From a virus: 64,000 nt of DNA. The stretch's first letter is position 1, and every line of letters begins with the position of its first letter. Location: the IMG/VR virus record IMGVR_UViG_3300034103_001442, positions 32,001 through 96,000 of that record. One strand, written 5' to 3'. A program made the translations under genes and the position numbers. Below, piece by piece: positions 8,091 to 64,000 of the stretch. The notes beneath the pieces were generated by a model. That model was given only the letters and a program-made list of their open reading frames with translations, ran no database searches and was not told where the DNA came from.

Positions 8091-8102
8091 TATTTATAAA
8101 TA
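8091..8102. promoter_or_regulatory. Overlapping bidirectional T4-type late promoters
   Basis: Palindrome TATTTATAAATA gives TATAAATA on both strands, between divergent gp48 and gp4. Confidence 0.85.
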
Positions 8103-16524: not shown

Positions 16525-16555
16525 GTGTATTTTGCCTCCATTATTGCAGTTGAAA

Positions 16556-16589
16556 GAAAAGGGTGGACAGTTTTTACACTGCCACCCCT
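16556..16589 (-). terminator. Terminator after the tmRNA coding piece
   Basis: GGGTGGCAG..CTGTCCACCC hairpin followed by TTTTCTTT on the minus strand. Confidence 0.7.
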
Positions 16590-16832
16590 GACTATTCTGT
16601 TACCAAGTAGTCAACTCTGGTATTCTTATACTGCTATTAAGCAGCAAGAGCCATGTCGTAATTGCTATCGTTTGCAGTTACTATTTTGCGCTGATTAAGT
16701 CAGTCGCCTCACTGGTAGCCGTCTGGTTATTACTTGCTCCGTCGAAACTGTGCACCCCCATAGTGGTGGAGGTGGTGGGAATCGCACCCACGTCCGAAAC
16801 ACTTTTAACAGTCAGTTTACTACCATTAGTTT
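16590..16832 (-). ncRNA. ssrA: Circularly permuted (two-piece) tmRNA
   Basis: Acceptor piece first: T-arm GTGGG-TGCGATT-CCCAC, then CACCTCCACCA ending at 16764. A 4-nt spacer CTAT follows. The coding piece starts GGGGGTG at 16759 (7-bp acceptor stem with G3.U70). Tag frame 16675-16637 reads ANDSNYDMALAA*. Outer ends are approximate. Confidence 0.92.
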
Positions 16833-16846
16833 GGTATTTATTTCAA

Positions 16847-17413
16847 TTAAAAAGGCGCATCCTCTTCACCCTTGAGCCAATTGAGAATTGTCTTTGGTGA
16901 AGTTTCGCCATATGGATCAGTTGGGCAGTTGTCCTTTTTGCCAGGCTCAATGAACCACTTTTCAATCTTACCGTTGTCAGCAACCACGGCATAACGCCAT
17001 GAGCGGTATCCAAAACCAAGGTTGTCCTTATCAACTAGCATTCGCATTTTGCTGGTGAAGTTACCACTGCCATCAGGAATGACTTTGACATTTTGAATGT
17101 TCTGAGCCTTTGCCCAAGCATTCATAACGAAAGCATCATTGACTGATACGCAATAAATCTCATCAACACCCTGCGCATTGAACTCTTCATACATTTCCTC
17201 AAACCCAGGCAACTGATAGGTTGAGCAGGTTGGGGTGAATGCACCAGGCAATGAGAAAACAACTACACGTTTGCCACCGAAATAATCATAGGATGAAACA
17301 TCCTCCCAGCGGTATGGGTTTGGTCCACCAACTGATTCATCGCGCACTCGAGTCTTAAAGACTACAGCAGGCAAAACCGTAGGCAAATCTTCTTCAAAAT
17401 TATCATCAAACAT
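16847..17413 (-). CDS. Peroxiredoxin (Prx5/redoxin type)
   Basis: VVVFSLPGAFTPTCS, YCVSVNDAFVMNAW, IPDGSG.FT, LGFG.RSWRYA. Confidence 0.93.
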   Translation of the reverse strand: MFDDNFEEDLPTVLPAVVFKTRVRDESVGGPNPYRWEDVSSYDYFGGKRVVVFSLPGAFTPTCSTYQLPGFEEMYEEFNAQGVDEIYCVSVNDAFVMNAWAKAQNIQNVKVIPDGSGNFTSKMRMLVDKDNLGFGYRSWRYAVVADNGKIEKWFIEPGKKDNCPTDPYGETSPKTILNWLKGEEDAPF

Positions 17414-19041: not shown

Positions 19042-19156
19042 CCCAAAAAGAATTCGGTTTATCTCTGTTGGTGCGCATCCAACTTGATCCTACAAAACTA
19101 CCATCGCTGTGCGACAAACTCTACACCGAAAGGTTGAGCGGTAGGTTTTTATTTAG

Positions 19157-53532: not shown

Positions 53533-53544
53533 TATTTATAAATA
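53533..53544. promoter_or_regulatory. Overlapping bidirectional late promoters
   Basis: TATTTATAAATA between divergent genes. Confidence 0.85.
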
Positions 53545-61706: not shown

Positions 61707-62066
61707 TCAACTCCGATAAGTCTGTTCTGTTTCACGAATCCAGAACGCAGCATCTTCGGACTCAGAATCCCAAGAAGAATCTGCATCATACTGACGCAAC
61801 AATTGCTCCGTCGTTTGCAGATCATCCAAGTAACCACGACCGAACTGCGCAAGACGACCCTGCACATCTTCGCATGCAAAGTCAGAATCCCAATCGAACT
61901 CTGCTTGAAATGCATCGCAATAATCGCAAGAACCGAATGCGCCTTGCACCCAGCCACGCTGACCTTGGTACTCGACCAAAGCAACCCATGAGCCTTGCCA
62001 GTCACCAAACTCCTGAAACGCGATCACTCGCGCACCAGCAGCAACCAATGAATCTTGATATGACAT
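61707..62066 (-). CDS. Hypothetical early protein
   Basis: FGDWQG.W, G.FGSC..CDAF; behind an early promoter. Confidence 0.7.
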   Translation of the reverse strand: MSYQDSLVAAGARVIAFQEFGDWQGSWVALVEYQGQRGWVQGAFGSCDYCDAFQAEFDWDSDFACEDVQGRLAQFGRGYLDDLQTTEQLLRQYDADSSWDSESEDAAFWIRETEQTYRS

Positions 62067-62072
62067 ATTAAG

Positions 62073-62101
62073 AATATACCCTACCTTGAAAATAAAATAA
62101 A
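62073..62101 (-). promoter_or_regulatory. Early promoter, leaderless
   Basis: TTTATT-17 nt-TATATT, then 6 nt to ATG at 62066. Confidence 0.75.
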
Positions 62102-62102
62102 G

Positions 62103-62357
62103 TTAGGCAACCACCTGAATGCGCGGCTCAATCCACTCGTCGTCGAACATGTGCTGACCAGGAAGGGGAGCAACGAAAGTGTCAGACCAGAACCTCTCTT
62201 CAACCTTACCCTCCCACACACGCTTGATCTTGTTGGCGCGGAAAGTGCCATCAGGAAGAATGGCAGTCACGAGACCGACATAATAACAATCCGTCGTGCT
62301 CGGAAAATCGAGCGACTTCACGACGGAACCTACTTCAACAGTGTTTTCAGTTTTCAT
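62103..62357 (-). CDS. Hypothetical early protein
   Basis: VG..V.S.DF....DCY..G.V. Confidence 0.7.
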   Translation of the reverse strand: MKTENTVEVGSVVKSLDFPSTTDCYYVGLVTAILPDGTFRANKIKRVWEGKVEERFWSDTFVAPLPGQHMFDDEWIEPRIQVVA

Positions 62358-62363
62358 ATTATC

Positions 62364-62392
62364 AGTATAGGTTATTTCAGAAATAAAGAAAA
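62364..62392 (-). promoter_or_regulatory. Early promoter, leaderless
   Basis: TTTTCT-TTATTTCTGAAATAACC-TATACT, then 6 nt to ATG at 62357. Confidence 0.85.
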
Positions 62393-62430: not shown

Positions 62431-62457
62431 AAAAAAAGGGTGCCCTTTCGGACACCC
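62431..62457 (-). terminator. Rho-independent terminator
   Basis: GGGTGTCC-GAAA-GGGCACCC-TTTTTTT. Confidence 0.88.
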
Positions 62458-62588
62458 TCCCACGATGCGTGTATCGAGAGGAACCCCACCTGCTGAGAAC
62501 CAGCTGCCTCGACTGTTCCAATCGTCTCTAACGAGACACTTGCCACTTTACGGACTCTAGAAACCGTAACCCACGCACCACATTGTGT
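62431..62588 (-). ncRNA. Putative late-expressed structured small RNA, family unknown
   Basis: GC-rich segment with no convincing ORF, between a TATAAATA promoter (62594-62601) and a terminator; several hairpins inside a closing stem. Confidence 0.6.
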
Positions 62589-62593
62589 AGTCT

Positions 62594-62601
62594 TATTTAT
62601 A
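62594..62601 (-). promoter_or_regulatory. Late promoter
   Basis: TATAAATA on the minus strand. Confidence 0.8.
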
Positions 62602-62626: not shown

Positions 62627-64000
62627 TTATTTAAAATTTTGGAATTTTGTTTTGTCAAATTTGAACTCTGTGATCTTTTCGCCAAACTTTCCCTTATCAG
62701 CCACTGGACCATCATCCATGATATTGTGTTGGGCTGCAACCTCAACATCATAGAGTTTCATCTTTGACCTATCAATACCAACAACAAATCTTCGGTTGTT
62801 GCCTGGATCACCATAACGGTTCTTCAACTGCTTGACCAAAATTTGGTTCATGCGTTCAAGTTCCTCAGTGCTGATCAACGCAAACATAAAGTCAGCCGTA
62901 GCAGGTAGACCAAATGACTCGGAGGTATCTTCAAGTCCAACATCAGAGTTTGTAAAGCCAGACCTGTTCGTTTGGGTTGCTGATATAATTGGAACGTTAG
63001 ACTCAACCGCAAGCCCACGCAACTCTTCAGCAATTGCCTTGATGTACATATAACTGTTGACATTGCTGTTTGGCTTGATTCTTGATGAGGCGCAAATGTT
63101 CAGATAGTCAATGTAGATAATATCAGGGACAAAGTTTTTCTTGACTTTCAACTCACCAAGCAGGTGGCGAAAGTTTGCCGAGCCAGCACAAGCAGTTGGA
63201 TACTCTTTGACGATCAACTTACCCTTGGCTTTTTCTCTAATTTTAGTAATCTTGCGGTCATATGAGTCTTTTGGTAAGTCCTTGAGTTCATCAAGGGTGA
63301 CATCCATAAGGTTGGCATCAATACGTTCAGCAATCTTTTCCTCAGCCATTTCCATGGTGATATACAAAACGTTGTAACCACTGATAAGGTTGTATGCCGC
63401 GCAATGACACATAAACAAAGATTTACCAACGCCTGTTCCCGCGAGCGCGATGTTCAAAGTTTTTTTGGGCAAACCGCCATCGGTAATTTTGTTAAAGTAT
63501 TCGAGGTCAAATGGAATCTTTGACTCACGCTTATGATACAATTCAAAACGTTCATCAGAGTCGAGAAGGAAGTCGTGACCGATGCTACTATCAAATGATA
63601 CACCAAGCGCATCAGATAAAATTTTTGGAATTGATCCAACTGAAATCTTATCGTCTTTTTTATCAACCAACTTAATGGCTTCCATCAATGCATTGTATAG
63701 TGCCTTGTCTTTACAAAACTCTTCAGTGCGGTCAACCAACCAATCGAGTTCACGGTCTTCACTTTCTTTCAGTGTTCCAATCAACTCTTTGGTTAATTTA
63801 AACTGCTCTTCATTCAGATCAGTTGAACTTTGAATATCAATCAGCAACGCTTCCTTGGTCGGAAGTTTGTTATATTGTTTTACATACTTATCAATCAATT
63901 CAAAAATAACTTTGTGATTGCGGTCACGGAAATAATCGACACGCAAAAACGGTATGACCTTACGGGCATACTCTTCCCTATATATCAGGTTACCAAAAAT
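62627..64000 (-). CDS. gp41: Replicative helicase gp41 (5' end beyond the window)
   Basis: LAGTGVGKSL, YITMEMAEE.IAERIDAN, IDYLNIC, IAEELRG, SATQT.R, TSESFGLPATAD, KQLKNRY; frame open to position 64000. Confidence 0.96.
   Translation of the reverse strand: MFGNLIYREEYARKVIPFLRVDYFRDRNHKVIFELIDKYVKQYNKLPTKEALLIDIQSSTDLNEEQFKLTKELIGTLKESEDRELDWLVDRTEEFCKDKALYNALMEAIKLVDKKDDKISVGSIPKILSDALGVSFDSSIGHDFLLDSDERFELYHKRESKIPFDLEYFNKITDGGLPKKTLNIALAGTGVGKSLFMCHCAAYNLISGYNVLYITMEMAEEKIAERIDANLMDVTLDELKDLPKDSYDRKITKIREKAKGKLIVKEYPTACAGSANFRHLLGELKVKKNFVPDIIYIDYLNICASSRIKPNSNVNSYMYIKAIAEELRGLAVESNVPIISATQTNRSGFTNSDVGLEDTSESFGLPATADFMFALISTEELERMNQILVKQLKNRYGDPGNNRRFVVGIDRSKMKLYDVEVAAQHNIMDDGPVADKGKFGEKITEFKFDKTKFQNFK

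What the first reader, a model, noticed from the sequence alone, without database searches (positions are those of the whole stretch)
62431..62601. Stand-alone late-transcribed structured RNA of unknown class (about 160 nt)
Seen on the minus strand: TATAAATA promoter; closing stem GGTGCGTG/CACGCATC; hairpins TTACGG/CCGTAA, GTCTC/GAGAC and GCTG/CAGC within TCGAG/CTCGA; possible pseudoknot GGAAC/GTTCC; then a GAAA-loop terminator. It is GC-rich with no convincing SD-led ORF. Inference: an independent multi-branch ncRNA (ribozyme, protein decoy/anti-defence RNA or assembly RNA). It does not resemble tRNA, tmRNA or a hammerhead core by eye.
Basis: partly seen in the sequence, partly recalled or inferred. 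Interest (0 to 1): 0.7.

Follow-up and report, generated by a model that had tools for sequence, protein, structure and literature searches.

The report
New late-expressed structured phage RNA
Just downstream of the DNA helicase gene, this uncultured T4-like aquatic phage carries a small self-contained gene for a tightly folded non-coding RNA; over a hundred distinct relatives in ocean and lake virus DNA keep its promoter, fold and terminator, it matches no described RNA family, and its function is unknown.

Summary
At 62431-62601 (minus strand) there is an exact T4-type late promoter box, a roughly 115-nt multi-helix RNA and a strong intrinsic terminator.

It belongs to a large family. I found at least 112 distinct sequences in viral and metagenome contigs. 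The late promoter box is present in 54 of 54 members with 5' flank, and a terminator in at least 52 of 55.

Covariation supports a four-way junction. On 68 distinct members, all 28 modelled pairs show compensatory changes, 90.9% of cells pair, and 0 of 500 shuffles reach this.
- P1 is the closing stem; P2 and P3 are variable hairpins.
- P4 carries an optional hairpin (P4a) and a 3-bp stem (P5).
- P5 presents an invariant 7-nt loop, UGGGGUU.
- Two purine-rich junction strands are also near-invariant.

No Rfam family, tRNA or tmRNA matches. No reading frame is conserved. No bacterial genome and no GenBank phage was found to carry it. The cassette lies beside gp41 in 59 of 60 loci but is inverted in 16, so it is a stand-alone gene and not a leader.

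Function is untested. My best guess is a trans-acting RNA that binds a partner through the loop and junction core. This scan had already noted the same family in other genomes.

The parts
62594..62601 (-). T4-type late promoter box TATAAATA; the predicted transcript start is about 6-7 nt downstream (inference from the T4 paradigm)
   Evidence: The box is exact in the window and in 54 of 54 distinct homologues with 5' flank, lying 7-16 nt (one at 29 nt) before the first P1 pair. The box is enriched in the window (8 found, 1.9 expected). Elsewhere it precedes baseplate, head-closure and gp32-like genes.
62572..62579 (-). P1, 5' strand (closing stem)
   Evidence: Pairs with 62464-62471. All 8 pairs show compensatory changes across the family.
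62548..62569 (-). P2 hairpin (stem 62564-62569 with 62548-62553; variable loop)
   Evidence: 7 of 7 modelled pairs show compensatory changes. The loop sequence is not conserved.
62539..62547 (-). J2/3 junction strand holding the near-invariant AGGCAAG-type motif
   Evidence: GGCA is invariant in the 47-sequence alignment and the flanking purines are at least 90% conserved.
62523..62538 (-). P3 hairpin (variable length and loop)
   Evidence: 4 of 4 modelled pairs show compensatory changes. The distal part ranges from a tetraloop to about 30 inserted nt.
62514..62522 (-). J3/4 junction strand with invariant GGAA
   Evidence: GGAA is invariant in the 47-sequence alignment. It is unchanged in every one of the 68 distinct members, including those whose proposed pairing partner differs.
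62473..62513 (-). P4 (62508-62513 with 62473-62478) enclosing P4a and P5
   Evidence: 100% of cells pair and 6 of 6 pairs show compensatory changes.
62492..62504 (-). P4a, optional hairpin
   Evidence: Present in 35 of 68 distinct members, with several different stems; absent in the rest.
62479..62491 (-). P5: a 3-bp stem presenting the invariant 7-nt loop L5 (62482-62488)
   Evidence: Eight different stem types occur, always paired, and the loop is identical in 68 of 68 distinct members. These include members found with a pattern that did not specify the loop.
62464..62471 (-). P1, 3' strand
   Evidence: See the P1 5' strand.
62431..62461 (-). Intrinsic terminator (GC-rich hairpin, GAAA loop, U7 tail)
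   Evidence: Seen in the fold and in my own scan. A hairpin plus T-run follows the RNA in 52 of 55 homologues by my rule; the other three show one by eye. The stems differ in sequence.

Best explanation
This is a stand-alone gene for a stable, structured non-coding RNA of an undescribed family. The core is about 115 nt, or about 150 nt with the terminator hairpin.

Inferred transcription: the phage's late transcription machinery starts a few nucleotides before P1, from a T4-type late promoter, and stops at the RNA's own intrinsic terminator.

Shown fold: the RNA forms a four-way junction. P1 closes it and P2 and P3 are variable scaffold arms. P4 carries an optional P4a hairpin and a short P5 stem. 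P5 displays an invariant 7-nt G-rich loop. Two purine-rich junction strands are nearly invariant.

Inferred mechanism: conservation sits in the junction and in one loop, while the peripheral loops vary freely. From this I infer that the RNA acts in trans late in infection. The helices would serve as a rigid scaffold that presents the loop and junction core to a macromolecular partner. That partner would be a host or phage protein, or the end of another RNA, which the RNA sequesters or assembles with.
For: Shown:
- Homologues were found by an exact 15-mer scan, a junction-only pattern and a metagenome scan, then confirmed by nhmmer and a covariance model built without promoter or terminator. 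At least 112 distinct sequences resulted.
- Covariation on 68 distinct members: 90.9% of cells pair, 28 of 28 pairs have compensatory changes, 0 of 500 shuffles reach this, and slid controls give 33-54%.
- G-U pairs are frequent on this strand only, which fixes the transcribed strand.
- The promoter box is present in 54 of 54 members and the terminator in 52-55 of 55.
- The box precedes virion genes elsewhere in the window.
- The cassette lies beside gp41 in 59 of 60 loci: on the same strand in 44 and convergent in 16. It is therefore its own transcription unit.
- Only one copy is detected in the window, and a direct DNA search of the 151.7-kb record gave a single match.
- On a gp41 tree the RNA needs 3 gains or losses against 13.1 for shuffled labels, so it is maintained vertically in one clade.

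Inferred: late timing, trans action and the binding role.
Against: - There is no expression data and no partner has been identified.
- The one conserved neighbour besides gp41 is a 60-80 aa protein. It is missing from this genome and present in 23 loci that lack the RNA, so it is not a dedicated partner.
- Conservation focused on a junction core is equally typical of ligand-binding aptamers and ribozymes.
- I did not test whether this genome encodes the late sigma factor.
Confidence: 0.55

Rival explanations
1. The RNA acts by base-pairing. The invariant loop L5 would be a seed that kisses or pairs with a C-rich single strand in another RNA, for example the CCA 3' end of tRNA or tmRNA in the manner of the ribosomal P-loop, or a conserved rRNA or mRNA site.
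For: L5 is invariant in 68 of 68 members, while its 3-bp stem varies with compensation. That pattern fits an exposed recognition loop. A 3-bp stem with a 7-nt loop beginning UGGGG is the architecture of E. coli 23S helix 80, as read. From my own knowledge, G2251 and G2252 of that loop pair with C75 and C74 of P-site tRNA.
Against: - The loop never varies, so covariation with a target cannot be shown.
- Extended complementarity of loop plus stem to E. coli 16S 976-987 is lost in members with other P5 stems, so only 7 nt with two G-U pairs remain.
- A bare seed does not explain why the two junction strands are equally invariant.
Confidence: 0.15
2. The RNA is a small-molecule aptamer expressed as a free RNA, either a sensor or a sponge for a metabolite or signalling nucleotide.
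For: Invariant purines line a multi-helix junction while the peripheral loops vary. This is the usual anatomy of riboswitch aptamers.
Against: - It has no expression platform.
- The terminator stems differ in sequence between members, and I saw no conserved pairing between them and the largely conserved P1 3' strand.
- In 16 of 60 loci no gene lies downstream in the same orientation.
- It matches no Rfam riboswitch class.
Confidence: 0.08
3. The RNA is a new self-cleaving or otherwise catalytic RNA.
For: It has a compact junction fold with an invariant core.
Against: - It matches no known ribozyme class in Rfam, even at permissive E-values.
- From my own knowledge, self-cleaving ribozymes usually sit inside longer transcripts or repeats, not in a dedicated promoter-to-terminator cassette.
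Confidence: 0.06
4. The element is cis-acting: a leader or riboswitch for the downstream small genes, or a 3' stabiliser and terminator of the gp41 message.
For: In the window, gp41 lies upstream and small ORFs downstream, all on the same strand.
Against: - The cassette is inverted relative to gp41 and its neighbours in 16 of 60 loci.
- It always brings its own promoter box and terminator.
- Relatives that lack the RNA join the flanking genes directly.
Confidence: 0.04
5. A short translated ORF explains the conservation.
For: An ATG lies at the start of P1 in several groups. In one subgroup an ORF of about 42 codons spans the element; I read this by eye from the sequences printed.
Against: - No frame is open across the family: at best 18 of 57 members in one frame.
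- Indels are not multiples of three.
- Substitutions are compensatory in helices.
- By eye, the sequence upstream of the ATG shows no Shine-Dalgarno motif.
Confidence: 0.02

Closest known systems
Orphan structured ncRNAs found by comparative genomics in phages and metagenomes (Rfam motifs such as GOLLD and ROOL; the unnamed candidates of PMC10690425)
   Same: It is known only from sequence, phage-borne, strongly covarying and of unknown function. It may already be among the 8,495 unnamed IMG/VR candidates of PMC10690425.
   Different: It is much smaller than GOLLD or ROOL, has its own late promoter and terminator, and matches no Rfam model. I could not check the catalogue of PMC10690425 because no supplement is held.
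Bacillus phage phi29 packaging RNA (pRNA)
   Same: Both are stand-alone, phage-encoded, multi-helix RNAs of similar size that act in trans as part of the phage programme.
   Different: - From my own knowledge, pRNA uses a three-way junction and two complementary loops to form a ring on the portal.
- Here the P2 and P3 loops are not conserved, and there is no Rfam pRNA match.
- From my own knowledge, T4-type terminases need no RNA.
23S rRNA helix 80 (P-loop)
   Same: Both have a 3-bp stem capped by a 7-nt loop that begins UGGGG (E. coli sequence read).
   Different: Only 5 of the 7 loop positions are identical. The surrounding RNA is unrelated, and CCA binding is untested. This is a lead, not homology.
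Phage T4 stable RNAs C and D (own knowledge)
   Same: They are small stable RNAs of a T4-type phage with no assigned function.
   Different: The T4 RNAs are processed from the tRNA gene cluster transcript. This RNA has its own late promoter, and no tRNA genes are found in the window. I made no sequence comparison.

Membership tests
Any Rfam 15 family | Covariance-model score at or above the family's gathering threshold | tested here: not met
   No match on this region at gathering threshold. At E up to 10 only chance-level hits of 18 bits or less appeared. Ten diverse family members gave nothing consistent at E up to 5.
tRNA / tmRNA | Cloverleaf with T and D loops and an anticodon, or a tRNA-like domain plus tag ORF | tested here: not met
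   ARAGORN finds only the unrelated tmRNA at 16546-16856. The P2 and P3 loops are not conserved.
phi29-type pRNA | Two conserved, mutually complementary loops for ring formation | tested here: not met
   The P2 and P3 loops vary freely in sequence and length, and the only conserved loop (L5) has no complementary loop.
phi29-type pRNA | Binding to the portal and a requirement for DNA packaging | not testable with these tools
   Needs biochemistry.
Riboswitch or cis-regulatory leader | Sits upstream of, and in the same orientation as, the regulated gene, with an expression platform that competes with the aptamer | tested here: not met
   16 of 60 loci have the RNA convergent with its neighbours. 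Terminator sequences differ between members, and I saw no conserved pairing with P1.
Known self-cleaving ribozyme classes (hammerhead, twister, twister-sister, pistol, hatchet, HDV-like) | Class-specific core sequence and fold | tested here: not met
   No Rfam match, even at permissive thresholds.
Known self-cleaving ribozyme classes (hammerhead, twister, twister-sister, pistol, hatchet, HDV-like) | Site-specific self-cleavage | not testable with these tools
   Needs an in-vitro assay.
T4-type late transcription unit | TATAAATA box a few nucleotides upstream of the transcript start | tested here: met
   Exact box in the window and in 54 of 54 homologues. The box is enriched in the window and precedes virion genes.
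T4-type late transcription unit | Phage encodes the late sigma factor (gp55) and co-activator | not tested
   I did not search for them.
P-loop (23S helix 80) mimic | 3-bp stem and 7-nt loop beginning UGGGG | tested here: met
   Family loop and stem; E. coli helix 80 read.
P-loop (23S helix 80) mimic | Watson-Crick pairing of loop guanines with the CCA end of tRNA | not testable with these tools
   Needs binding assays.

The most novel reading that the evidence does not exclude
The invariant loop on its 3-bp stem would be a free-standing mimic of the ribosomal P-loop. The four-way junction would hold it so that the RNA captures CCA 3' ends of tRNA (or of the phage's own tmRNA) late in infection. 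Possible purposes are to shield those ends from host toxins that modify or cut them, or to damp starvation signalling by uncharged tRNA. A phage RNA that binds tRNA ends in trans has not been described, to my knowledge.
Probability: 0.07. Interest if true: 0.9.

Novelty: categorically new. Interest (0 to 1): 0.66.

Why it matters
T4-like phages are among the most abundant viruses in oceans and lakes, and their gene programme is thought to be well understood. Here a whole clade keeps a small, highly structured RNA, probably transcribed late, with an invariant core. It is absent from Rfam, from the bacterial genomes I scanned and from deposited phage genomes. That points to an unrecognised RNA-based step in the late phase of infection, such as assembly, host takeover or counter-defence.

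The family now has a solid alignment, a consensus structure and a covariance model. It can therefore be mapped in metatranscriptomes, synthesised and probed directly.

"New" here means a new RNA family. Its mode of action may still turn out to be a familiar one, such as a protein decoy.

Tried and rejected
- **Rfam.** Gathering and permissive thresholds on the window and on ten diverse members gave nothing.
- **ARAGORN.** No tRNA-like gene here.
- **GenBank phages.** blastn with four full members and one 63-nt core found no true match. The covariance model found nothing in Methylophilales phage Melnitz, Synechococcus phage S-SM2 or marine virus AG-345-E15.
- **Bacterial and archaeal genomes.** A pattern scan gave 42 hits, all scoring 27 bits or less against at least 48 bits for true members. 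I take them as chance.
Rejected by covariation.
- **Small ORF.** Rejected.
- **Dedicated protein partner.** The gp41-adjacent 60-80 aa protein (PHROG 29065, function unknown; no Pfam hit) is absent from this genome and present in 23 RNA-less loci. Downstream ORFs hit only PHROGs of unknown function plus sub-threshold Pfam matches.
- **rRNA mimicry or antisense.** The junction motifs do not occur in E. coli rRNAs in either sense. The 12-bp complementarity of P5 plus L5 to 16S 976-987 does not survive the P5 stem variants.
- **tRNA-Tyr coincidence.** An 11-mer spanning L5 occurs in four tRNA-related papers. From memory it is the 5' end of E. coli tRNA-Tyr. I treat this as a coincidence because the structural context differs.
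- **Target sites in the phage genome.** Sites complementary to L5 showed no telling pattern.
- **Terminator scanner.** The simple scanner missed the terminator, although the fold and my own scan show it.
- **PMC10690425.** Its supplements are not held, so I could not check whether the motif is in that catalogue.

Full report
**What is in the window.** The minus strand from 62601 to 62431 reads, in order:
- an exact TATAAATA box (62594-62601);
- a 14-nt leader;
- a closing stem P1 (62572-62579 with 62464-62471);
- hairpin P2 (62548-62569);
- a purine-rich junction strand (62539-62547);
- hairpin P3 (62523-62538);
- a second junction strand containing GGAA (62514-62522);
- stem P4 (62508-62513 with 62473-62478), which encloses a small hairpin P4a (62492-62504) and a 3-bp stem P5 with a 7-nt loop (62479-62491);
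- after three unpaired bases, a GC-rich hairpin with a GAAA loop and seven U (62431-62461).

The 160-nt stretch folds at -60.8 kcal/mol, z = -3.26 against dinucleotide shuffles. It is 54% G+C in a 41% G+C genome. The gene upstream is the gp41-type replicative helicase (62627-63946). Its best named relatives are cyanophages and Methylophilales phage Melnitz, at 60-63% identity. The window is part of a 151.7-kb IMG/VR virus record.

**It is a family, not a one-off.**
- nhmmer found the same element downstream of gp41 in five related viral contigs.
- An exact scan for a 15-nt invariant stretch returned 119 viral loci, of which about 95 are true homologues.
- I built a covariance model from 47 sequences, without promoter or terminator.
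- The model scores members at 48-104 bits. It finds the RNA in 13 of 80 loci that were collected only because they encode a gp41 relative.
- It finds a single copy in the window.
- A second viral scan, using only the two junction motifs, added members with different P5 stems.
- A metagenome scan returned 120 loci. Of the first 100, 77 are true members, including TARA ocean scaffolds (the names of other contigs suggest lake and estuary samples), with 44 new distinct sequences.

In all I saw at least 112 distinct sequences.

**Structure.** I used the model-based alignment of 68 distinct sequences.
- 90.9% of cells form standard pairs.
- All 28 modelled pairs have at least one compensatory double change, 390 cells in all.
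- None of 500 column shuffles reaches any of the five measures.
- Sliding the 3' partners by one to three columns drops pairing to 33-54% (an earlier set gave the same picture).
- P4 and P5 pair in 100% of cells.
- P5 occurs as eight different 3-bp stems, while its 7-nt loop is identical in 68 of 68.
- P4a is present in 35 of 68 and covaries.
- G-U pairs are common on this strand and would be A-C mismatches on the other, so the strand is settled.

I reject it. Pairing of the two A with the two loop U cannot be excluded, because both are invariant.

The alignment was fitted to the model, which favours the structure. However, an independent RNAalifold run on the plain MAFFT alignment also predicted P4 and P5. 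My counts on the MAFFT columns support the other helices too: P3 pairs in about 90% of cells, the inner six pairs of P1 in 70-96%, and P2 least cleanly at 62-98%.

**A self-contained transcription unit.**
- All 54 distinct members with enough 5' flank carry the exact box, 7-16 nt (one at 29 nt) before P1.
- 52 of 55 with 3' flank pass my hairpin-plus-T-run rule, and the other three show a terminator by eye. The terminator stems differ in sequence, mostly with UUCG or GAAA loops.
- In the window the box occurs 8 times against 1.9 expected. Elsewhere it precedes genes for a baseplate tail-tube cap, a head-closure protein, the gp32-type single-strand-binding protein and others. This fits the T4 late-promoter paradigm (PMC2988020).
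- Across the whole 151.7-kb record, this is the only box followed by a terminator and no sizeable ORF.
- gp41 lies within 2.5 kb in 59 of 60 loci. The RNA is on the same strand in 44 and convergent in 16. The cassette can therefore be flipped, which a leader or a 3' UTR could not be.
- Relatives that lack the RNA join the flanking protein genes directly.
- On a gp41 tree the presence of the RNA needs three changes against 13.1 for shuffled labels (0 of 500 shuffles as low). The window groups with L001-L003, then L004 and L006. The RNA is thus mostly inherited vertically in one clade, with at least one loss and one outlier.

**What it is not.**
- No Rfam family matches, at curated or permissive thresholds, on the window or on ten diverse members.
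- ARAGORN finds no tRNA-like gene here.
- No reading frame is open across the family, at best 18 of 57.
- Pattern hits in 185,579 bacterial and archaeal genomes all score at chance level with the model.
- No deposited phage genome matches by blastn. The model finds nothing in Melnitz, S-SM2 or AG-345-E15.
- A 60-80 aa protein with a conserved glycine-rich motif sits between gp41 and the RNA in 48 of 60 loci. It is absent from this genome and present in 23 loci without the RNA. It is a neighbour of gp41, not a partner of the RNA.
- The small ORFs downstream in the window have no informative family.

**How it probably works.** The fold, the promoter box, the terminator and the independence of the cassette are shown. 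Late timing is inferred from the T4 paradigm.

Conservation is concentrated in the two junction strands and in loop L5, while the P2, P3 and P4a loops and lengths vary freely. That anatomy suits an RNA whose helices are a scaffold presenting one composite surface. My preferred reading (about 55%) is a trans-acting RNA that binds a macromolecular partner late in infection, as a decoy, sponge or RNP subunit.

A more specific lead concerns L5. Its 3-bp stem and its 7-nt loop beginning with U and four G have the architecture of helix 80 of 23S rRNA, the P-loop. I read that helix from the E. coli sequence. Its guanines pair with the CCA end of P-site tRNA (own knowledge). I give a CCA-end-binding or other loop-pairing mechanism about 15% overall, and the P-loop mimic proper about 7%. 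A free aptamer, a ribozyme, a cis element and a small ORF are progressively less likely, for the reasons listed under the rival explanations.

**Novelty and prior notes.** I found no description of this RNA in the literature I searched. The large IMG/VR catalogue of unnamed candidates (PMC10690425) may contain it, but its tables are not held here.

This scan has met the family before in other genomes. Two follow-up reports describe a late-promoter, four-helix RNA next to the helicase gene with about a hundred relatives. Two first-reader notes describe close relatives of the L147 group. My results agree with those reports and add:
- the P5 hairpin with its invariant loop in place of the pseudoknot;
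- the optional P4a;
- the flipped orientation;
- the exclusion of the neighbouring small protein as a partner;
- the clade-wise inheritance.

Noticed in passing
window 16546-16856 (-): The phage carries a tmRNA gene. Rfam matches it to the permuted (two-piece) and betaproteobacterial models, and ARAGORN reads the tag peptide as ANDSNYDMALAA. This hints at a betaproteobacterial-type host and at phage interference with ribosome rescue.
   Followed up: no
window 19099-19143 (-): There is a full-length match to the Rfam COG2908 RNA motif, a cis-regulatory candidate (67.4 bits against a gathering score of 58.7), inside the phage genome.
   Followed up: no
L004:4510-4746 (+) and equivalents in 48 of 60 RNA-bearing loci; absent from the window's genome: A 60-80 aa protein with a conserved glycine-rich C-terminal motif lies directly downstream of gp41 in many aquatic T4-like phages, with or without the RNA. 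It matches only PHROG 29065 (unknown function) and has no Pfam hit.
   Followed up: partly
window 62355-62369 (-) and 62064-62078 (-): The two small genes downstream of the RNA each begin with the same 15-nt arrangement: a -10-like hexamer 6 nt before the ATG and no Shine-Dalgarno sequence. There are 2 matches against 0.16 expected. These may be leaderless early messages.
   Followed up: partly
window 8091-8102 and 53533-53544: Two places carry overlapping late-promoter boxes on both strands, driving divergent genes: a baseplate cap and a head-closure protein at the first, a cytidyltransferase-like protein and an unknown 450-aa protein at the second.
   Followed up: partly
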